DNA from: Escherichia phage 235Ecol030PP
DNA length: 64,000 nt
Strand: one strand, 5' to 3'
Sequence record: PP355091.1
Made by a program: the position numbers and the translations under genes. This document shows positions 26,129-33,075 of this stretch, in pieces. Below the pieces are notes generated by a model. That model did no database searches, was not told where the DNA came from, and worked only from the letters and a program-made list of their open reading frames with translations. The first letter of the stretch is position 1. Each line of letters begins with the position of its first letter.

Positions 26129-28177
26129 TTATCCTTGAACGAACTTGTAAGGCATGTTTGCAATATCTATGCAAGACGCAATAATTCCAAGAGATGATTC
26201 TACTTTCTGTTTAACATTTGATGAAACAAATGATGCAAAGTCAACTCTATCTTCTATATCACCTGTCATTGTAACCAATTCACCAGTTTCCATTAAATGG
26301 TCTCCGTCATAGATTACCGATTCGGTGAGTTCTTCTGTGGTCATAACTTCAGCTTGAATAAGCTTGTTGTTAGTTCTAACTGTTCCATCGTTGTAAGATG
26401 CATCGGTTATTTTATTAACTTTGACCATTAATCCACGTGGCAAAATGACTTCCATTTCATTTGAAGGCGCTAAACTTCCACCGGGTAAAACAACATTGAC
26501 CTTATCAGCCCCAGTAATAACCCATCCAATTCCAACTAAATTATCGCTAGAATTTACTAGTCCTTCATCAGTTTTATCAATAGAAACACTTAGACGCTTT
26601 TCGTCTGGTAAAACACCTATAGATGAATCAGTCATCCAAGTACCAAAAATATTTGGATATAATGATGTTGACACAAAGTTTCTAAAATAAAAAACTCGAT
26701 TTTTTACCATTGCTTCATATATTGAAGGTAACATTCGTTGTGAACGATACAAAGTAATACCTTTTGGTAATCGTTCACCATTTTTAAAGGCTGAATCTAA
26801 ATTATCAATGGCTTGTTCTATTTCAGGTGCTGTTAAAATACTTGTACGCTCATCTGGATTATATAATCCCAAAAGAGCATTATTTATGTCTACATATCCT
26901 GAACCTACATATTCACGAATTCCGCGTTTTTGCGCTGGCGTGTATTTAGATGAATCTTTATTTTCGACTATAGGATGTAATGACCATCCAGCGGTAAGAG
27001 CATATCCACGTAATTCTCTTCGAATAATCTTTGTTTTTATTGCATTCCAAGAATTTTGTACTAACTCATTTGCAGCATCTTGGTTTAAATGCGAATGTCT
27101 GTTAATATTTCTTTCAAACCAGGCACCTTTATATTTTTCTAAAGTATCATCGACGATAGAAGCAATAGTTTCTAAAGTTTTTATTGAAGTAATAGATTCT
27201 TTTCGTAATTTTTCTAAAGCTTTATTTTTTATTTCTGCATTAATAATGGATTCTTTATCTTCAGGAATTATAGAAGCTTCTCTGAATGCCATCCCAGCTG
27301 TAACACTGCTAAGAGCATTCTCTAGTGCAAATCCTGAAGTAGAAATTACCGTTAATTCATTAGAATCAGAAATTAAAGGCGCGTCCGCTGGTTTATTTAA
27401 TTCTGCCGCTGAAGCCTCAAATTTTTGAAACATCGGTGTTTCAAATCTAGAAGATTCCAATGACTGACTTTGTGCAATTGCTCTACGGGAAATTTTAACT
27501 TTAACGATTACAGCTTGGTCAGAACGTTTATCATTTTCTTGCGCAATAGATGCTGCAATTGCCTCATTTTTAGTTACTTGGGCTCCAGTATCTTTATTGA
27601 TATAAACATCACCGACCTTCGATTCAACTTTAGTAAAGAGCTCGGTACTAATTTCCGGAACTCCTGGAATGTCTTCTAGTGATACATTTTTGCGATGTAT
27701 AAGAATATATGCATACTTTTTATCATAATCCCAGAGTTCCTTAAGAAGGACGTATCTGCCACCTGAACGACTACGGATAAGTCTATCAGCAATAACTTGA
27801 ATTTGTCGAGCTTGACCAGCGGTTTTAGACTTAAGAATACGAAGCATACAGGCATCAATTTTATACTGACGCATCGTTTGCATTGCAACAGTAAAAACTG
27901 AATTGATATAATTAATTGGGCTTGGACCAAGACCTTTCAATTTAGCAATTGAACCTTTAGCGGTTAATGTAAAAGGAACAATATGCATCATTTTATCGCC
28001 CATCTTTAAATCACGATTAGTATCACCTCCAGATGTATAGGTACATAAACGAAAGCCTGGTTGTTCAATTGCGTCATCAACATGAACTGAAAAAATTTGC
28101 GGTATTTTCTTCTTTGGATTTAAGTTTGTAATCGGAAGAGTAGTATCTTCGTCAAATAATTCTGTAATTAGTTCCAT
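26129..28177 (-). CDS. alt: ADP-ribosyltransferase Alt (virion-packaged)
   Basis: 682 aa from second ATG (GAGGA SD spacing); TATTTATA on plus = late promoter on minus at 28203-28210. Confidence 0.9.
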   Translation of the reverse strand: MELITELFDEDTTLPITNLNPKKKIPQIFSVHVDDAIEQPGFRLCTYTSGGDTNRDLKMGDKMMHIVPFTLTAKGSIAKLKGLGPSPINYINSVFTVAMQTMRQYKIDACMLRILKSKTAGQARQIQVIADRLIRSRSGGRYVLLKELWDYDKKYAYILIHRKNVSLEDIPGVPEISTELFTKVESKVGDVYINKDTGAQVTKNEAIAASIAQENDKRSDQAVIVKVKISRRAIAQSQSLESSRFETPMFQKFEASAAELNKPADAPLISDSNELTVISTSGFALENALSSVTAGMAFREASIIPEDKESIINAEIKNKALEKLRKESITSIKTLETIASIVDDTLEKYKGAWFERNINRHSHLNQDAANELVQNSWNAIKTKIIRRELRGYALTAGWSLHPIVENKDSSKYTPAQKRGIREYVGSGYVDINNALLGLYNPDERTSILTAPEIEQAIDNLDSAFKNGERLPKGITLYRSQRMLPSIYEAMVKNRVFYFRNFVSTSLYPNIFGTWMTDSSIGVLPDEKRLSVSIDKTDEGLVNSSDNLVGIGWVITGADKVNVVLPGGSLAPSNEMEVILPRGLMVKVNKITDASYNDGTVRTNNKLIQAEVMTTEELTESVIYDGDHLMETGELVTMTGDIEDRVDFASFVSSNVKQKVESSLGIIASCIDIANMPYKFVQG

Positions 28178-28202
28178 CATATCCTCTCTAGTGTGTTTAT
28201 TC

Positions 28203-28210
28203 TATTTATA
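28203..28210 (-). promoter_or_regulatory. late promoter (minus strand) for alt
   Basis: Plus strand TATTTATA about 25 nt upstream of alt start. Confidence 0.6.
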
Positions 28211-28215
28211 AAATT

Positions 28216-28233
28216 AAAGGCCCGAAGGCCTTT
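28216..28233 (-). terminator. terminator after ligase-distal ORF (UUCG loop on minus strand)
   Basis: Minus strand AAAGGCC UUCG GGCCUUU then AAUUUUAU. Confidence 0.55.
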
Positions 28234-28420
28234 AGTAATCTAGCGGTAAGAGAGTACGATATATTTCAAACTTTGGTCCTTTTTCATAGGCATCAAATGT
28301 TTCTGTGAATTTATTATAAGCGTATGCATCTACAAATTCGAGAATGACTTGTGATACAGAAGTAGAAACATCTCCACCTTCTTTTTGAGCAATGACAATT
28401 GTTTCTAAGTAAGCTTTCAT
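28232..28420 (-). CDS. hypothetical 62-aa protein
   Basis: ATG overlaps ligase stop (ATGA); hairpin at its 3' end. Confidence 0.5.
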   Translation of the reverse strand: MKAYLETIVIAQKEGGDVSTSVSQVILEFVDAYAYNKFTETFDAYEKGPKFEIYRTLLPLDY

Positions 28421-29880
28421 AGACCAGTTACCTCATGAAAATCACCAAATACATCTTCGAATGTATTAGCTTTAGTTTTATCTTCGCGTAAACGAATCGC
28501 AATCGGAAGAAATAATTTAACGTAATCAGTGCGGCCATCAGATTTTAACCAACCGTTGCATTCGCACTCTAGAATTTTTCCAATATAATAATTTTGGTTT
28601 TCCATAATGCGAGTACGGTCAAGTTCATGCGATTTTACACCGGCTTTATCTTTTAAGCCTGAACCAGCATTTACCTTAATTTTTCCACACTCTGACTCAA
28701 GAATAAATCCACCTGCTTTAGTAGGGTCTTTACGGTGAGGATAAATTCCTACAATTTTTAAATCAACATCAATTACTTCTTTAAATTTATAGAGATTTTT
28801 TGAACGAGCATTTTCCCATAATCCATCGATATTTTTGAGAATAATACCTTCAAGACCTTGGTCAATATACTTTTTATAAATTACCTTAGCTTCATCTAGG
28901 TTATTTACTACCTGGTTTTCAATTAAAATTACTTTATCATAGCCTGATGTCATTTGTTCTAGTTTAGAAAAACGTACATCATACTTTAAACGAAATGCAG
29001 GAAGACCATATATTTCTACTAATGGAACATAATCCCAGACCTGAAACTTCATGCATTGTGCTTCTTTTTCAGAAATGGTTCCCTTTAAAGATTTATTAGC
29101 GATTCCATTAGAAGTAGTACGTGATTCAGCTACTTCGGCGAATTCTTTGGCTTTACTAATTTCAGGATAAGCATCAAAAAGAAAATCTAGGCCTTCTGGC
29201 TCCTTTTTAACTTGCTCATGGTATACCAATTCGCCATCAATTAACACGCCTTCTGGATGAATCTGGCGGGCTTCAGTGGTCATTTTGATTAATTCTTCCT
29301 TAAGAAGATCTAATCCTAGATATTCATTACCGGCTCGTGATAAAAGACGAACATCATCTAATTCATCACCTCTGACTTCGGCAAAGCACCGAGCCCCATC
29401 AGCTTTTAACTGAGCAAAGGCTGGAAATTTGATATTCTTATTAATGCCTTTTTCATCATAAGAACTTGCAAGCATTTGAGGTTGTTCAGGAATTAAACCT
29501 GGCCAAACTTTGTTTGCAATAGATACTGAAGCACCACATTCAAGGTCTCGCATCATCACTCGACGCAAAACTTCAACATCATCTTTTTTACCGTCAGTAA
29601 TATATCCAGTTAATTCCTCAATTGCCACATTTCCAGTCAATTTCCGAGTAGCTAATGTGAATTCAATGAAGTCAAGCATATCGGTAAGAGTCAACATTCC
29701 AAAACTCTGGGTAGCAATACCAGGTTTAGGCCATTTCTTGATATAATACTGCAACCCACGAGAATAAGTCAGACGATATACTCGTTTAAGCAATTCATTA
29801 TCTTTATTCTTTTCAAGAATTGCTTGCTTCTGCTTAGTTGAACCAATAGATGCTATTTCGTTCAGAATTTTAAGAATCAT
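28417..29880 (-). CDS. 30: ATP-dependent DNA ligase
   Basis: 487 aa as T4 ligase; adenylation motif KADGAR. Confidence 0.95.
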   Translation of the reverse strand: MILKILNEIASIGSTKQKQAILEKNKDNELLKRVYRLTYSRGLQYYIKKWPKPGIATQSFGMLTLTDMLDFIEFTLATRKLTGNVAIEELTGYITDGKKDDVEVLRRVMMRDLECGASVSIANKVWPGLIPEQPQMLASSYDEKGINKNIKFPAFAQLKADGARCFAEVRGDELDDVRLLSRAGNEYLGLDLLKEELIKMTTEARQIHPEGVLIDGELVYHEQVKKEPEGLDFLFDAYPEISKAKEFAEVAESRTTSNGIANKSLKGTISEKEAQCMKFQVWDYVPLVEIYGLPAFRLKYDVRFSKLEQMTSGYDKVILIENQVVNNLDEAKVIYKKYIDQGLEGIILKNIDGLWENARSKNLYKFKEVIDVDLKIVGIYPHRKDPTKAGGFILESECGKIKVNAGSGLKDKAGVKSHELDRTRIMENQNYYIGKILECECNGWLKSDGRTDYVKLFLPIAIRLREDKTKANTFEDVFGDFHEVTGL

Positions 29881-30146
29881 TATTCATCCTTCAGAGTTTG
29901 GTTTACAGCTCTATTATAAATCAATTCATCATTAAGCTCAGTCAAAGACTTATGATATGTGGTTCTAACTTTATTTCCTTGCATCCAGTGCTTGATATAA
30001 ATGAAACCTTGCTCTACGCATTTTTTAAAAATTCGTTCGTCTTTTTGAGATCGGAATTCTGGATTGCATCTAAAAAATTGATTTACGTGACCGTAATCAC
30101 GTGTAGTATTACCTTCATTTTCATAAATAGTGTGAACAACAAACAT
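29880..30146 (-). CDS. hypothetical 88-aa protein (T4 30.x cluster)
   Basis: ATG start, abuts ligase start. Confidence 0.55.
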   Translation of the reverse strand: MFVVHTIYENEGNTTRDYGHVNQFFRCNPEFRSQKDERIFKKCVEQGFIYIKHWMQGNKVRTTYHKSLTELNDELIYNRAVNQTLKDE

Positions 30147-30985
30147 TAGAATGCTCCTTGGAAAATATTATCACCACAAGTAGGTCTATTATACAAATAC
30201 TCTATACCGCCGGGTTTAATATAGTTCCATGTCTGAAACGGATGTGTCTGATATGGATGATATAGATGATTATAAGGATTAAATCCAGGAGTTCTCCAGG
30301 TAGTGTTCCAAGGAAAAGAATCGTTTTTAATCATCTTTTCAATTACATCTTTTATAGCTTTTTCACTATCAAAACTTTCTTTATTTTCCTTTGGTGAAAA
30401 AAGCTTATTCTCTACATCGTTCCATGTATAAACTCGCTGAGCAGTTTTTGGAATACTGTCACGTTCCCCTCGAGCCATCCAATAAACAGGAACACTTAAT
30501 ATTTCACTCGCGTGATCGCAGTGGTGAGCGAGATCGTCAATATAACAAATTACGTTATATTTCTCTTTTGCCTTTTTGAACAACTCTTCTTTTGAAGAAT
30601 CATGACCACACATCAGTACTTCTGAGAAGGCACCAGGAAAAAGAGCATTCAAATTAAATTGACGATTCAGCAGAGCGTCAATAGAATCACCCAATGCTGT
30701 AACAGCTACAAAATTATAATCTTCTTTTAATTTGTTAATTACACACAGGGCATCTTTATATGGCGACAAGTAACGAATAAAATCTGAACGATTGTATTTT
30801 TCAATTAACTTGACGCCAAGTTCTTCATCACAATTAAAAAGTTTACCAGGAGAAATAAATTTTTCATCTTGGATCATTTTTAAAATATGTTCCAACGGAA
30901 GATTATATTTCTGAGCAAAATAAGGAAGGCCTGATTGCCAGCTTAAACATACTCCATCAATATCAGTTAAAATAGTAGGCTTCAT
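30146..30985 (-). CDS. 279-aa protein with N-terminal HAD-like hydrolase signature (T4 30.2-like)
   Basis: N-terminal LTDIDGV resembles HAD motif I DxDG(T/V); later YIDD motif. Confidence 0.6.
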   Translation of the reverse strand: MKPTILTDIDGVCLSWQSGLPYFAQKYNLPLEHILKMIQDEKFISPGKLFNCDEELGVKLIEKYNRSDFIRYLSPYKDALCVINKLKEDYNFVAVTALGDSIDALLNRQFNLNALFPGAFSEVLMCGHDSSKEELFKKAKEKYNVICYIDDLAHHCDHASEILSVPVYWMARGERDSIPKTAQRVYTWNDVENKLFSPKENKESFDSEKAIKDVIEKMIKNDSFPWNTTWRTPGFNPYNHLYHPYQTHPFQTWNYIKPGGIEYLYNRPTCGDNIFQGAF

Positions 30986-31440
30986 AGAGAGTCTCTTAAT
31001 AGGTTTAACACATCAATAAATTCAGCTTCGGTTAGTATTGTATCATCTTTTGTTAGACCACTAGCCATGCTGTGCTTCAAAACTTTTCCTTTCGAGGCTT
31101 GTAATGCATCACGAAAGCCCTTGTTTTGGATCGCTGCTTCAAAATATGCATTTGTGTATAATTCTTTCCACGCCGGGGAGTATCTTGAAAACGGAACTCC
31201 AAGCCAGAAGAGGGTCCCACGGTCCTGAGCTCTAGCATAAGACCTTCCAGCTTGTTGGGCGGCAAGCCCGGATAACCCAAATATACGACGTTGTTGTTCA
31301 ACATTTTTCACCTTGCACCCTTGGAGGAATCCTTCAAGACCTCCAAATTGAATACCATCCATAACGAAAGGCCATTGGGCGAAATTACTTAATGCACATG
31401 ATGGCCACCTAAAATTGCTTCTAATCTCTAACTCAGACAT
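30982..31440 (-). CDS. NADAR / YbiA-like (DUF1768) domain protein (T4 30.3-like)
   Basis: LSNFAQWPFVMDG and following region resemble E. coli YbiA FSNFAAWPIKVDG; start set to ATG 31440 (track start is TTG). Confidence 0.6.
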   Translation of the reverse strand: MSELEIRSNFRWPSCALSNFAQWPFVMDGIQFGGLEGFLQGCKVKNVEQQRRIFGLSGLAAQQAGRSYARAQDRGTLFWLGVPFSRYSPAWKELYTNAYFEAAIQNKGFRDALQASKGKVLKHSMASGLTKDDTILTEAEFIDVLNLLRDSL

Positions 31441-31639
31441 TTTCAATGCTTATAATTTCAACATCAGCCCAATGACCATAGCAAGGAAGACAAAATTCAA
31501 CTGGCCAGTTAGGGTCCTTTTCTAATATAATAGACTCAACTCGTGGTTCTTCATGTTCATCAGTATATGGATTTTTATCTGTTACTTTATATGTGACCTT
31601 AATGTACTGAATTCCAAAAATCTTATTAATTATATTCAT
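31433..31639 (-). CDS. hypothetical 68-aa protein
   Basis: ATG start, packed ORF. Confidence 0.45.
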   Translation of the reverse strand: MNIINKIFGIQYIKVTYKVTDKNPYTDEHEEPRVESIILEKDPNWPVEFCLPCYGHWADVEIISIENV

Positions 31640-31833
31640 ACTAATTCCTTTAATCCGTAAATAGGAGATAATTCATCACCCATACGAAGGTCTTCATTTC
31701 CATCTACCCAGGAAACAATATAAGCCTCTTTTATTTGAATACCACTCCATTTAAATGGAGGTAGAACCTTAGAAATTAATCCAGGTATACCAACTCCCTT
31801 TAATTCAACAGTTTGACCTAAAAAGAATTTCAT
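31636..31833 (-). CDS. hypothetical 65-aa protein
   Basis: ATG start, ATGA-type overlap. Confidence 0.45.
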   Translation of the reverse strand: MKFFLGQTVELKGVGIPGLISKVLPPFKWSGIQIKEAYIVSWVDGNEDLRMGDELSPIYGLKELV

Positions 31834-32120
31834 TAGAACCTCATCTGAAAACCGTGCGATTTAACATTACCGCCATTAATATCAGAACTATTAATTTCAC
31901 GTGCAATTGAAGGGTCAATGTCAATTTCACGATTGAGTTTAGTGATAGCTAAAGTATCGCGCCCATTTACAGTACGAAACTCTAAAGGACAAACCACATC
32001 AACGTAGTTTTTAATCGATTCGCTAGTAGGTTGCAAATGTGCAGGAAGGTCTTTAGGTGCCTTTGAGAAAACAACTTCACAGAAATTTTTGCGGGTATCA
32101 AAATAAGTAGTCATAAACAT
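31833..32120 (-). CDS. hypothetical 95-aa protein
   Basis: ATG with GAGGA SD; UUCG hairpin just upstream. Confidence 0.5.
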   Translation of the reverse strand: MFMTTYFDTRKNFCEVVFSKAPKDLPAHLQPTSESIKNYVDVVCPLEFRTVNGRDTLAITKLNREIDIDPSIAREINSSDINGGNVKSHGFQMRF

Positions 32121-32136
32121 AATATTTTCCTCAATA

Positions 32137-32152
32137 GGGGGCCGAAGCCCCT
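32137..32152 (-). other. intercistronic UUCG hairpin
   Basis: Minus strand GGGGC UUCG GCCCC just upstream of the SD of ORF 31833..32120. Confidence 0.5.
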
Positions 32153-32161
32153 CATTTTATT

Positions 32162-32527
32162 TTAAATATCAAATTCGTTAAGAACTACATCAAAGATTGC
32201 TTCAAGATGCTCAGGTTTAGCTCTGTTACTCAGAATATGACGAATCCAAGTTTTAACCAAAAGCTTGCGATTAACGCCATTCCAGCAAGGATGAGTCCCT
32301 AAATCGCGTTGACGAAAATCATCATCCAGAGCGATTTTGAAGTTTGAACCTTCCATTGTGATTGAAACCGTGATTCCATTTTCAAATCGCATATAAACGT
32401 AATTAGGAGTCATATACTGCTCAATTTCGCATACTGATCCATTTTGATGTTTCCAAAGGCAAATAGTATCAATAGAACCTGCAATACCATTAGAAACATA
32501 TTTACGTTCAAAGTTGATGTAGTTCAT
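32162..32527 (-). CDS. hypothetical 121-aa protein
   Basis: Start moved to ATG 32527 (GGAG SD; track start is TTG); early promoter upstream. Confidence 0.5.
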   Translation of the reverse strand: MNYINFERKYVSNGIAGSIDTICLWKHQNGSVCEIEQYMTPNYVYMRFENGITVSITMEGSNFKIALDDDFRQRDLGTHPCWNGVNRKLLVKTWIRHILSNRAKPEHLEAIFDVVLNEFDI

Positions 32528-32563
32528 TTTATTCTCCAAGATGTTTAATTGCGGTACAGGTAT

Positions 32564-32592
32564 ATAATATCATATCCTGTACCAAAGTAAAC
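32564..32592 (-). promoter_or_regulatory. early promoter: GTTTAC, 17 nt, TGaTATTAT, bracketed by an 8-bp inverted repeat
   Basis: Minus strand GTTTACTTTGGTACAGGATATGATATTATATACCTGTACC. Confidence 0.55.
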
Positions 32593-32596
32593 TATT

Positions 32597-32965
32597 TTAT
32601 GCAACTTTAATCCAATTATCTAAATTTAATTCACCTTTGGCTTTCATTTTTTCAATCAAGAGGTCAGCGGTAATACGACCATTTTGATACCACGTAACAT
32701 CTTCAGAGTAACCAGTTTCTTTATCTTCATAAGTCTCGCAGCGAATTTTACCAAGAATCAAAGTTTTTAATTCGTATGTATCTCCAGTAAAAAAGTTAGT
32801 TAACATTATTTTCCAAGAGAAATCATCAGAAGGACCTTCAGGAGTCATACAATCTACGAATTCAAATTGTTCTTTGTATAAGTGCCACTGAAGTTCTTTA
32901 GTTTCGATAGCTTTATAGCCGTCGTGATCTTTACCTTTGATGTATGAGTTAAGATTGATTTTCAT
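32597..32965 (-). CDS. hypothetical 122-aa protein
   Basis: ATG, GGAG SD, early promoter upstream. Confidence 0.55.
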   Translation of the reverse strand: MKINLNSYIKGKDHDGYKAIETKELQWHLYKEQFEFVDCMTPEGPSDDFSWKIMLTNFFTGDTYELKTLILGKIRCETYEDKETGYSEDVTWYQNGRITADLLIEKMKAKGELNLDNWIKVA

Positions 32966-32992
32966 TTTATTCTCCTTTGTTTGTGTAAGATA

Positions 32993-33022
32993 ATACTATC
33001 ACAAAGGAACCATACTGTAAAC
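32993..33022 (-). promoter_or_regulatory. early promoter: GTTTAC, 18 nt, TGaTAGTAT
   Basis: Minus strand, about 30 nt upstream of ORF 32597..32965. Confidence 0.55.
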
Positions 33023-33051
33023 AACTTTATGCAATCTTTGGAAAATAAAAA

Positions 33052-33071
33052 AGGACTCCCGAAGGAGTCCT
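33052..33071 (-). terminator. terminator after the small basic ORF (UUCG loop, U-tract)
   Basis: Minus strand AGGACUCC UUCG GGAGUCCU then UUUUUUAUUUU. Confidence 0.65.
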
Positions 33072-33075
33072 TAAC

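What the first reader, a model, noticed from the sequence alone, without database searches (positions are those of the whole stretch)
30982..31440. NADAR / YbiA-like domain protein in the ligase-proximal ORF cluster
The 152-aa product shares LSNFAQWPFVMDG and following blocks with E. coli YbiA (FSNFAAWPIKVDG). NADAR proteins are linked to reversal of ADP-ribosylation, including DarT-type DNA ADP-ribosylation used in anti-phage defence. A phage copy in the same early region as Alt (an ADP-ribosyltransferase) suggests a counter-defence or ADP-ribose processing role. The neighbouring 279-aa ORF (30146..30985) has a HAD-like DIDGV motif.
Basis: partly seen in the sequence, partly recalled or inferred. 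Interest (0 to 1): 0.55.

Follow-up and report, generated by a model that had tools for sequence, protein, structure and literature searches.

The report
T4 AdfN, a known anti-DarTG1 NADAR enzyme

Summary
The ORF is real: 30982..31440, minus strand, 152 aa. It differs at 1 of 152 residues (I125M) from phage T4 gp30.3, and it sits in T4's gene order alt–alt.1–30–30.1–30.2–30.3–30.4.

Pfam places it in PF08010 (Phage_30_3, E=2e-70), not in PF08719 (NADAR), even at E≤10. Deeper tests confirm NADAR:
- Profile–profile comparison with the YbiA family gives 97.3% probability, E=1.8e-11.
- In a PDB fold search, the only confident hits of an AlphaFold model (pLDDT 93) are the three solved NADARs.
- E36, K43 and the subfamily-specific H123 are conserved.

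The function is published. gp30.3 = AdfN, a guanine-specific DNA ADP-ribosylglycohydrolase that counters DarTG1 (Mol Cell 2023; Toxins 2024; Nat Commun 2025; a T4 transposon screen).

Caveats:
- AdfN does not rescue DarT1 toxicity in uninfected cells.
- alt and 30.2 are dispensable for its function.
- gp30.2 is a genuine HAD-fold protein, but it tracks the ligase gene, not the NADAR.

One residual open point is whether the overlapping upstream gene 30.4 helps AdfN or its transposon phenotype is only polar.

The parts
30982..31440 (-). adfN (T4 gene 30.3): a 152-aa single-domain NADAR-fold DNA ADP-ribosylglycohydrolase, phage gp30.3 subfamily
   Evidence: ORF. Pfam PF08010 E=2.2e-70. 151/152 identical to T4 gp30.3. 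AF2 model pLDDT 93. The only confident Foldseek PDB hits are 2b3w, 8bau and 8bat. hhalign against the YbiA family gives 97.3% probability, E=1.8e-11.
31333..31335 (-). Codon for Glu36, a catalytic glutamate. E36A abolishes AdfN function in the published work.
   Evidence: GAA read. Invariant in the 61-sequence (A1) and 60-sequence (A2) family alignments. Aligned to YbiA E48. Mutagenesis in PMC11257639.
31312..31314 (-). Codon for Lys43, a catalytic lysine. K43A abolishes function in the published work.
   Evidence: AAG read. Conserved in at least 90% of the family. Aligned to YbiA K55. Mutagenesis in PMC11257639.
31072..31074 (-). Codon for His123, in the last beta-strand (E120-123). This is the residue that marks the phage gp30.3 NADAR subfamily; the YbiA family has Glu and the DarT1-linked NADARs have Asp.
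   Evidence: CAC read. Invariant in the family. Strand assignment. Subfamily rule from PMC11125620 and PMC11543638. hhalign places H123 opposite YbiA H126, next to E125, so the exact register is uncertain by one residue.
30985..31029 (-). Codons 138-152, covering the C-terminal helix (residues 138-151). It is intact here. Loss of the last 15 residues by a frameshift inactivates the RB69 copy.
   Evidence: Helix 138-151 in the model. Full-length match to T4. RB69 truncation in PMC11257639.
31433..31440 (-). 8-nt overlap between the end of gene 30.4 and the start of 30.3 (AATGTCTGA). There is no Shine-Dalgarno-like sequence upstream, so translational coupling is likely.
   Evidence: Junction sequence printed; ORFs. 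Insertions in 30.4 lower fitness under DarTG1 (log2FC -1.79, adjusted p 0.014).
31433..31639 (-). Gene 30.4, 68 aa, no known domain. It lies directly upstream of adfN and overlaps it.
   Evidence: no Pfam hit; phrog_2042, function unknown; T4 annotation.
30982..30985 (-). ATGA overlap between the adfN stop codon and the 30.2 start codon
   Evidence: Read (plus strand tcat at 30982..30985); ORF coordinates.
30146..30985 (-). Gene 30.2, 279 aa. Residues 1 to about 195 form a HAD-superfamily fold resembling 5'(3')-deoxyribonucleotidases, followed by a C-terminal tail of about 80 residues predicted to be disordered. It is a neighbour of adfN, not a functional part of it.
   Evidence: HAD motifs conserved: D8xD10GV, T96, K132, D150-D151. 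Model pLDDT above 90 for residues 1-190. 103 PDB matches at E<=0.001, and all 50 listed are HAD-superfamily folds. Dispensable under DarTG1.

Best explanation
The ORF is the adfN gene (T4 gene 30.3) of a T4-like Tequatrovirus.

Its product is a free-standing NADAR-fold enzyme. When the host's DarT1 toxin ADP-ribosylates guanine bases in single-stranded phage DNA and so blocks replication, AdfN hydrolyses the N-glycosidic bond between the guanine and the ADP-ribose. This clears the adducts and lets replication proceed. Catalysis uses Glu36 and Lys43 from the conserved E-x(3)-Q-x(2)-K helix, probably together with His123 from the last strand.

AdfN neither binds nor inhibits DarT1. It does not act on the thymine adducts made by DarT2. 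It is effective only during infection by a T-even phage.

Shown here:
- identity with T4 gp30.3;
- the NADAR fold and homology;
- conservation of the catalytic residues and an intact C-terminus.

Taken from the literature for the 99%-identical T4 protein: the enzymatic activity, the anti-DarTG1 phenotype and the specificity.

Inferred: that the I125M variant in this window behaves the same way.
For: Identity and synteny:
- 151/152 identical to T4 gp30.3.
- The gene order alt, alt.1, 30, 30.1, 30.2, 30.3, 30.4... matches T4.
- The region is 98.8% identical to Tequatrovirus genomes.

NADAR homology and fold:
- The family profile hits only YbiA (2b3w) among all PDB sequences, E=0.005.
- hhalign of the gp30.3 family against the YbiA family gives 97.3% probability, E=1.8e-11, over 125 columns. 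It pairs E36 with YbiA E48 and K43 with K55.
- The AF2 model has pLDDT 93 and pTM 0.88.
- Its only Foldseek PDB matches with probability >=0.99 are YbiA 2b3w (E=5.8e-5, TM 0.68), P. nicotianae NADAR with ADP-ribose (8bau) and G. lovleyi DarT1-linked NADAR (8bat). Everything else has probability <=0.07.

Catalytic residues:
- E36 and H123 are invariant and K43 is conserved in at least 90% of the 61-sequence (A1) and 60-sequence (A2) family alignments.
- All 15 T-even-type copies examined keep E36, K43, H123 and a full-length ORF.

Literature:
- T4 and T2 deleted for adfN lose about 4 logs of plaquing on DarTG1 hosts.
- Ectopic AdfN restores RB69 plaquing, while the E36A and K43A mutants do not.
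- Purified AdfN removes ADP-ribose from DarT1-modified DNA (PMC11257639 and PMC11825919).
- T4 gp30.3 hydrolyses guanosine-ADPr but not thymidine-ADPr in vitro (PMC11125620).
- In the independent T4 transposon screen, 30.3 insertions fall from 261.0 to 0.7 (log2FC -7.25, adjusted p 0) under DarTG1. They are unchanged under DarTG2 (+0.03).
Against: - Pfam's NADAR model PF08719 does not match the protein, even at E<=10. NCBIfam has no match either. Direct phmmer against PDB sequences does not find a NADAR.
- Identity to solved NADARs is only 15-18%.
- No activity was measured for this exact I125M sequence.
- AdfN fails to rescue DarT1 toxicity in uninfected cells in two studies, so the in vivo mechanism has an unexplained requirement.
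- hhalign aligns H123 with YbiA H126 rather than with E125, so the claimed His-for-Glu replacement is not resolved at single-residue register by my data.
Confidence: 0.93

Rival explanations
1. It is a housekeeping YbiA-type N-glycosidase. In this view it destroys reactive riboflavin-pathway intermediates, a metabolite damage-control role, and does not act on DNA.
For: The E. coli gene is annotated 'N-glycosidase YbiA'.
Against: - The protein lacks features that are invariant in the YbiA family. The T-E-N-D-x-Y-W-G-D-G-G block falls in a gap in the profile alignment.
- It belongs to a separate subfamily marked by His123.
- The T4 orthologue is conditionally essential only under DarTG1, and it hydrolyses guanine-ADPr DNA.
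- The literature places phage AdfN closest to DarT1-linked NADARs, not to YbiA.
Confidence: 0.02
2. Its main role is to process the phage's own ADP-ribosylation. It would reverse or trim the protein or RNA modifications made by Alt, ModA or ModB. That would explain its position near alt.
For: alt lies 2.8 kb downstream on the same strand. Iyer et al. 2022 note that NADARs of T4-like phages are encoded alongside ADP-ribosyltransferases.
Against: - Insertions in alt (log2FC -0.01), modA (+0.11) and modB (+0.13) have no effect under DarTG1. Insertions in 30.3 have no fitness cost without DarTG1.
- Alt is within 6 kb in only 15 of 80 gp30.3-type loci.
- Tested NADARs act on base-linked (guanine) ADP-ribose.
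- L003 carries an identical 30.3 but an alt only 71% identical, so the two genes are not inherited as a unit.
Confidence: 0.03
3. It degrades soluble ADP-ribose-derived immune signals or by-products, such as cyclic ADPR isomers or ADPr-1''-phosphate, rather than DNA adducts. Iyer et al. 2022 proposed this as the general role of phage NADARs.
For: The proposal is in PMC9503650. The family is very large, with 1,676 clusters at 50% identity, and it occurs in many genomic contexts. Some members may therefore have other substrates.
Against: For the T4 orthologue, the DNA-adduct activity and the DarTG1-specific phenotype are shown directly. No evidence of activity on soluble signals was found in the papers read. 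It could still be a secondary activity.
Confidence: 0.02

Closest known systems
AdfN (anti-DarT factor NADAR) = bacteriophage T4 gp30.3; Pfam PF08010 Phage_30_3
   Same: 151 of 152 residues are identical. It has the same length, the same genomic position between 30.4 and 30.2, the same catalytic residues E36, K43 and H123, and an intact C-terminal helix.
   Different: There is a single conservative substitution, I125M, in the low-confidence loop just after the last strand (pLDDT block 121-130 = 78). The same protein sequence occurs in IMG/VR contig UViG_3300045988_128797.
DarG1: the DarT1-associated NADAR antitoxin (BC4488 subfamily; G. lovleyi 8bat, E. coli C7 NADAR)
   Same: It shares the NADAR fold and the same chemistry, hydrolysis of guanine-linked ADP-ribose on ssDNA. 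According to the literature it is the closest NADAR clade.
   Different: - There is no adjacent darT gene.
- The N-terminal extension is absent: 152 aa against 189-219 aa for the solved proteins.
- It has His where DarG1 has the catalytic Asp.
- It cannot replace DarG1 in uninfected cells.
E. coli YbiA (PF08719 NADAR; PDB 2b3w)
   Same: It is the best structural match (TM 0.68, E=5.8e-5). It shares the [LF]SNFA-WP---DG and E-x(3)-Q-x(2)-K motifs. YbiA also hydrolyses guanosine-ADPr in vitro.
   Different: - Identity is 18% overall.
- It does not reach Pfam PF08719.
- It lacks the invariant YWGDGG block and the family-defining Glu.
- YbiA is a chromosomal housekeeping N-glycosidase located between rhlE and dinG.
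Other phage anti-DarT factors: AdfA (T4 gp61.2) and AdfM (T4 Tk.4, a macrodomain)
   Same: They are encoded by the same phage and serve the same purpose, countering DarTG. AdfM is likewise proposed to remove the adduct enzymatically.
   Different: AdfA binds DarT1 and has no enzymatic domain. AdfM has a macrodomain fold and is directed at the thymine adducts of DarT2.

Membership tests
NADAR superfamily | [quoted passage not shown] | tested here: met
   AF2 model with pLDDT 93. The only Foldseek PDB hits with probability >=0.99 are the three solved NADARs 2b3w, 8bau and 8bat; the next hit has probability 0.05.
NADAR superfamily | Match to the Pfam NADAR model PF08719 above its gathering score | tested here: not met
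   No PF08719 hit, even at E<=10. The protein belongs instead to PF08010. Some relatives hit both models: P0083, P0346 at E=3.8e-4, and several YbiA-family proteins.
NADAR superfamily | Statistically significant sequence homology to bona fide NADARs at profile level | tested here: met
   hhalign of the gp30.3 family against the YbiA family gives 97.3% probability, E=1.8e-11, 125 columns. The family HMM hits 2b3w as the sole PDB match, E=0.005.
NADAR superfamily | Conserved catalytic Glu and Lys in the E-x(3)-Q-x(2)-K helix (E88/K95 in E. coli C7 NADAR) | tested here: met
   E36 is invariant and K43 is conserved in at least 90% of sequences. They align to YbiA E48 and K55.
NADAR superfamily | Guanine-ADP-ribose glycohydrolase activity | not testable with these tools
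   Published for the 99%-identical T4 protein. Not measured for this sequence.
Phage gp30.3 / AdfN subfamily (PF08010) | Match to PF08010 above its gathering score | tested here: met
   235.3 bits against a cut-off of 36, E=2.2e-70, covering model positions 1-138 of 138.
Phage gp30.3 / AdfN subfamily (PF08010) | Histidine in the last strand, in place of the Glu (YbiA family) or Asp (BC4488 family) | tested here: met
   H123 is invariant across the family and lies in strand 120-123. The rule is stated. The register relative to the YbiA Glu is not resolved better than +/-1 residue.
Phage gp30.3 / AdfN subfamily (PF08010) | Full-length C-terminal helix (its loss inactivates the RB69 copy) | tested here: met
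   152 aa, with helix 138-151 predicted and an end-to-end match to T4.
Phage gp30.3 / AdfN subfamily (PF08010) | Confers resistance to DarTG1 during infection | not testable with these tools
   Shown for T4 and T2, but not for this phage.
DarG1-type antitoxin (DarT1-associated NADAR) | Encoded in an operon with a darT1 toxin gene | tested here: not met
   The flanking genes are 30.4 (no domain) and 30.2 (HAD). The only ADP-ribosyltransferase nearby is Alt, of the exoenzyme-toxin type.
DarG1-type antitoxin (DarT1-associated NADAR) | Catalytic Asp in the last strand, plus an N-terminal extension | tested here: not met
   His123 sits at that site. The PF08010 match begins at residue 11, and the model's first strand is at residues 3-6 of 152. 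The literature confirms that the extension is missing.
YbiA family (riboflavin-intermediate N-glycosidase) | Invariant E-H-T-x-x-D-x-Y-W-x-D-G-G block, including the family Glu | tested here: not met
   This block is invariant in the 35 YbiA-family sequences. It is absent or gapped in the gp30.3 family in the profile alignment.
HAD superfamily (for the neighbouring gene 30.2) | Four catalytic motifs (DxDx[TV]; S/T; K/R; DD) on a Rossmann-like core | tested here: met
   D8, D10, G11 and K132 are invariant, and T96 and D150-D151 are conserved in at least 90% of sequences. There are 103 PDB fold matches at E<=0.001, and all 50 listed are HAD-superfamily folds. The best target-normalised TM-scores (0.63-0.71) go to 5'(3')-deoxyribonucleotidase-like proteins. 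No Pfam or NCBIfam model matches it.

The most novel reading that the evidence does not exclude
The published work leaves one open problem. AdfN needs an unknown T-even-encoded 'potentiating factor' to work in vivo.

In the rows of the T4 transposon table for DarTG1 that I read (genes 26 to the end), the only significant gene besides 30.3 is 30.4 (log2FC -1.79, adjusted p 0.014). This 68-aa ORF lies directly upstream in this window (31433..31639), and its stop codon overlaps the adfN start.

The most novel reading not excluded is that gp30.4 is that helper, for example by stabilising or localising AdfN, and that its phenotype is not merely a polar effect.

Polarity remains the more likely explanation, for three reasons:
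- adfN has no Shine-Dalgarno sequence of its own.
- The effect is partial.
- Gene 30.5 upstream also trends down, at -3.00, though not significantly.

gp30.2 is excluded as the helper (log2FC -0.12, 71 sites).
Probability: 0.1. Interest if true: 0.5.

Novelty: already known. Interest (0 to 1): 0.15.

Why it matters
For annotation, it matters that this ORF can be named. Public phage records still label it 'hypothetical protein', and PHROGs lists its family as unknown function. It should be called adfN, a guanine-specific DNA ADP-ribosylglycohydrolase and anti-DarTG1 counter-defence factor.

For method, the case shows that a negative Pfam NADAR hit would have wrongly refuted a correct idea, because the phage subfamily sits in a separate Pfam family.

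Scientifically, nothing new is established about AdfN itself. The useful by-products are these:
- gp30.2 is a real HAD-fold enzyme linked to the DNA ligase gene rather than to AdfN.
- Published transposon data exclude gp30.2 and Alt as AdfN partners.
- The same data leave only 30.4 as a non-essential candidate for the unidentified potentiating factor.

Tried and rejected
1. Direct HMM tests for NADAR failed. This covers Pfam at E<=10, NCBIfam and phmmer against PDB sequences. I treat these as false negatives, given.

2. I tested gp30.2 as an obligate partner or potentiating factor of AdfN. The idea came from the ATGA overlap and from adjacency that is conserved in T4-like loci down to 42-48% identity. 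I rejected it on three grounds:
   - About 60 of 80 gp30.3-type loci lack 30.2 within 6 kb.
   - Only 36 of 76 gp30.2 loci have a gp30.3-type gene, whereas 72 of 76 have the ligase.
   - Insertions in 30.2 are neutral under DarTG1.

3. I tested a functional link to Alt and rejected it.

4. The promoter scan meant to support 'early gene' status was no better than shuffled sequence.

5. I examined domain fusions of family members for functional context. They are heterogeneous: GDSL lipase, BspA-type LRR, LGT and FtsW-like. Some are probably gene-call fusions, so they were not informative.

6. I asked whether the internal ORF 30.3' is a selected overlapping gene. The frame stays open in 14 of 15 copies. 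However, the ATG is often lost, and third-position divergence in the 30.3 frame is the same inside the overlap (25-27 of 76) as outside it (24-33 of 76). There is no support for selection.

7. A literature search for 'gp30.2' found nothing.
Full report

Yes. A minus-strand ORF runs from 31446 (TTG) or 31440 (ATG) to a stop codon at 30982. It is also the start that T4's annotation uses for the orthologous gene.

The motif LSNFAQWPFVMDG is at residues 17-29. I translated E. coli K-12 ybiA from the genome. BLASTP aligns the window protein's residues 17-70 to YbiA residues 29-83, with 19/57 identities and a pairwise E of 8e-6.

The other elements of the observation also check out:
- The 279-aa neighbour at 30146..30985 starts MKPTILTDIDGV.
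- Alt (Pfam ADPrib_exo_Tox, E=8e-35) lies at 26129..28180 on the same strand.
- The ATP-dependent DNA ligase (E=1e-32) lies at 28417..29880 on the same strand.

**2. What genome is this?**

The region 29800-32200 is 98.8% identical to Tequatrovirus (T4-like) phage genomes, and 684 phage records match it. The gene order alt, alt.1, 30, 30.1, 30.2, 30.3, 30.4, 30.5... is exactly that of T4.

The protein differs from T4 gp30.3 at one position, I125M. It is 100% identical to a copy in an IMG/VR contig.

**3. Is it a NADAR?**

It reports no match to PF08719 'NADAR', even at E<=10. NCBIfam has no match. PHROGs lists the family as unknown function. Single-sequence phmmer against PDB sequences finds no NADAR.

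Three more sensitive and independent tests all say NADAR:

- **Family profile against PDB sequences.** A profile built from 61 family members has exactly one hit with E<=10 among 177,635 PDB sequences. That hit is YbiA (2b3w), at E=0.005, over the motif region.
- **Profile–profile comparison.** The gp30.3 family (60 sequences) against a YbiA family alignment (35 sequences) gives 97.3% probability and E=1.8e-11 over 125 columns. It pairs E36 with YbiA E48 and K43 with YbiA K55.
- **Fold search.** An AlphaFold2 model (pLDDT 93, pTM 0.88) was searched against the PDB. The only three matches with probability >=0.99 are the three solved NADARs. These are YbiA 2b3w (E=5.8e-5, TM 0.68), P. nicotianae NADAR bound to ADP-ribose (8bau) and the G. 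lovleyi DarT1-linked NADAR (8bat). The fourth hit has probability 0.05.

Bridging sequences also exist. P0083, P0346 and several YbiA-family proteins match both Pfam models.

The family is large. An exhaustive profile search finds 1,676 representatives at 50% identity with E<=0.001.

**4. Catalytic competence of this copy**

E36 and H123 are invariant, and K43 is conserved in at least 90% of the family. Their codons can be read directly in the window:

| Residue | Codon | Window coordinates |
|---|---|---|
| E36 | GAA | 31335-31333 |
| K43 | AAG | 31314-31312 |
| H123 | CAC | 31074-31072 |

H123 lies in the last predicted strand, residues 120-123. The literature gives this position as the subfamily marker. 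It is Glu in the YbiA family, Asp in DarT1-linked NADARs and His in phage gp30.3 proteins.

One caveat applies. hhalign places H123 opposite YbiA H126, next to E125. My data therefore do not fix the register better than one residue.

The C-terminal helix (138-151) is intact. This matters because the RB69 copy is inactive after losing its last 15 residues.

All 15 T-even-type copies I compared keep the full ORF and all three residues.

**5. What it does: already published**

- Schuller et al. (Mol Cell 2023, PMC11543638) showed that NADARs hydrolyse guanine-linked ADP-ribose made by DarT1, and noted the phage subfamily with His.
- Toxins 2024 (PMC11125620) expressed T4 gp30.3. It removes guanosine-ADPr but not thymidine-ADPr from ssDNA in vitro, and it does not rescue DarT1 toxicity in cells.
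- Johannesman et al. (bioRxiv 2024; Nat Commun 2025;16:1598) found gene 30.3 by crossing RB69 with T2 and T4, and renamed it adfN. Their results are:
  - Deleting it from T4 or T2 costs about four logs of plaquing on DarTG1 hosts.
  - Ectopic AdfN rescues RB69, but the E36A and K43A mutants do not.
  - Purified protein removes ADP-ribose from DarT1-modified DNA.
  - It does not bind DarT1, and it does not counter DarTG2.
- An independent T4 transposon screen (HIDEN-SEQ, bioRxiv 2025) agrees. In its supplementary table for DarTG1, 30.3 insertions fall from 261.0 to 0.7 (log2FC -7.25, adjusted p 0). They are unchanged under DarTG2 (+0.03). The sheet header was located, and the rows were read.

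**6.

*Alt.* Adjacency to alt is T4-lineage synteny, not a functional coupling.
- Insertions in alt (-0.01), modA (+0.11) and modB (+0.13) are neutral under DarTG1.
- Only 15 of 80 gp30.3-type viral loci have Alt within 6 kb.
- One locus with an identical 30.3 has an alt only 71% identical.
- T4's annotation describes Alt as a capsid-packaged protein. I could not support 'early region' from the sequence.

*gp30.2.* The HAD remark is right.
- The four HAD motifs are conserved: D8xD10GV, T96, K132 and D150-D151.
- Residues 1-190 are modelled at pLDDT above 90.
- There are 103 PDB matches at E<=0.001, and all 50 listed are HAD-superfamily folds. The best target-normalised TM-scores go to 5'(3')-deoxyribonucleotidase-like proteins.
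- No Pfam or NCBIfam model detects it.

gp30.2 is nevertheless not AdfN's partner, despite the ATGA stop/start overlap.
- About 60 of 80 NADAR loci lack it.
- Only 36 of 76 gp30.2 loci have a gp30.3-type gene, whereas 72 of 76 have the ligase immediately downstream.
- Insertions in 30.2 are neutral under DarTG1 (log2FC -0.12, p 0.61, 71 sites).

**7. What remains open**

The published paper rules out DNA modification as the reason AdfN works only in T-even infections. T4-GT7, which has unmodified DNA, is still protected. The authors propose an unidentified T-even factor.

In the DarTG1 transposon table I read the rows from gene 26 to the end. The only other significant gene there is 30.4 (log2FC -1.79, adjusted p 0.014). 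In this window, the 30.4 stop codon overlaps the adfN start (AATGTCTGA), and adfN has no Shine-Dalgarno-like sequence.

A polar effect on adfN translation is therefore the simplest explanation. A genuine helper role for gp30.4 is not excluded, and I give it about 10%. If the factor is not 30.4, the screen implies that it is essential or redundant.

**8. Verdict**

The feature is a known gene with a known mechanism, so novelty is 'already known' and interest is low. The practical outcome is a better annotation: adfN rather than 'hypothetical protein'. There is also a caution against using a single Pfam family hit as a refutation test.

Noticed in passing
window 31077..31304 (-): A 75-codon ORF lies inside adfN in the +1 frame. 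It corresponds to T4's annotated gene 30.3' ('internal translation in a different reading frame') and matches phrog_14037. The frame stays free of stop codons in 14 of 15 T-even-type copies. However, its ATG is often replaced (ATT, ATC or ACG), and third-position divergence of the adfN frame is the same inside and outside the overlap. I see no sign that it is under selection.
   Followed up: partly
window 30146..30985 (-), and loci L083-L161: gp30.2 is a HAD-fold protein that no Pfam or NCBIfam model detects. In 72 of 76 viral loci it sits immediately upstream of the DNA ligase gene, even at 36-45% identity. This is a far tighter linkage than its linkage with adfN. HAD phosphatases include DNA 3'-phosphatases such as the T4 Pnkp phosphatase domain (my own knowledge). 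A role in end-healing or nucleotide handling connected with ligation is therefore worth testing. The gene is non-essential in T4 on K-12.
   Followed up: partly
window 30146..30390 (-), gp30.2 residues ~200-279: The C-terminal ~80 residues of gp30.2 are predicted to be disordered (pLDDT below 50) and are missing in many homologues of about 200 aa. Several diverged long forms nonetheless share a short terminal motif, roughly G-x-G-I-E-Y-L-x-R-Q-P-T (here KPGGIEYLYNRPTCG). It looks like a short linear interaction motif, but its partner is unknown.
   Followed up: no
window 31433..31639 (-): Gene 30.4 (68 aa, no known domain) is the only gene other than adfN that is significant in the rows of the published T4 transposon table for DarTG1 that I read. 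Its log2FC is -1.79 with adjusted p 0.014, and it is unaffected under DarTG2. The preprint's main text does not discuss it in the passages I read. This is either polarity on adfN or a helper function.
   Followed up: partly
window 33072..33051 (-) and 28234..28215 (-): Two strong terminator-like hairpins on the minus strand (AAGGACTCCTTCGGGAGTCCTT+T-run and TAAAGGCCTTCGGGCCTTTA+T-run) bracket the gene string 30.8 to alt.1. This suggests that the string, which includes adfN and the ligase, is one transcription unit separate from alt.
   Followed up: no
loci L003-L014 and L045 compared with window 26129..33000: The region shows a mosaic pattern. Contig L003 is 97-100% identical to the window from 30.7 through alt.1, but only 71% identical in alt and 39% in 30.8. 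Other phages show the reverse: 98-99% in alt, or 89-95% in 30.8. Recombination breakpoints therefore flank the 30.7 to alt.1 block.
   Followed up: no
proteins P0205-P0352: The gp30.3-type NADAR domain is found in 1,676 clusters at 50% identity. Many of these proteins are 250-560 aa long. Some have tandem NADAR repeats (P0205, three stretches). Others carry fusions to BspA-type leucine-rich repeats or GDSL lipases. The fusions to LGT and FtsW-like membrane proteins may be gene-call artefacts. This diversity reaches well beyond T4-like phages.
   Followed up: partly
window 30982..31440 (-), as annotated in public records: Most deposited Tequatrovirus genomes, including the RefSeq T4 record, still annotate this gene as 'hypothetical protein', although its function was published in 2023-2025.
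   Followed up: yes
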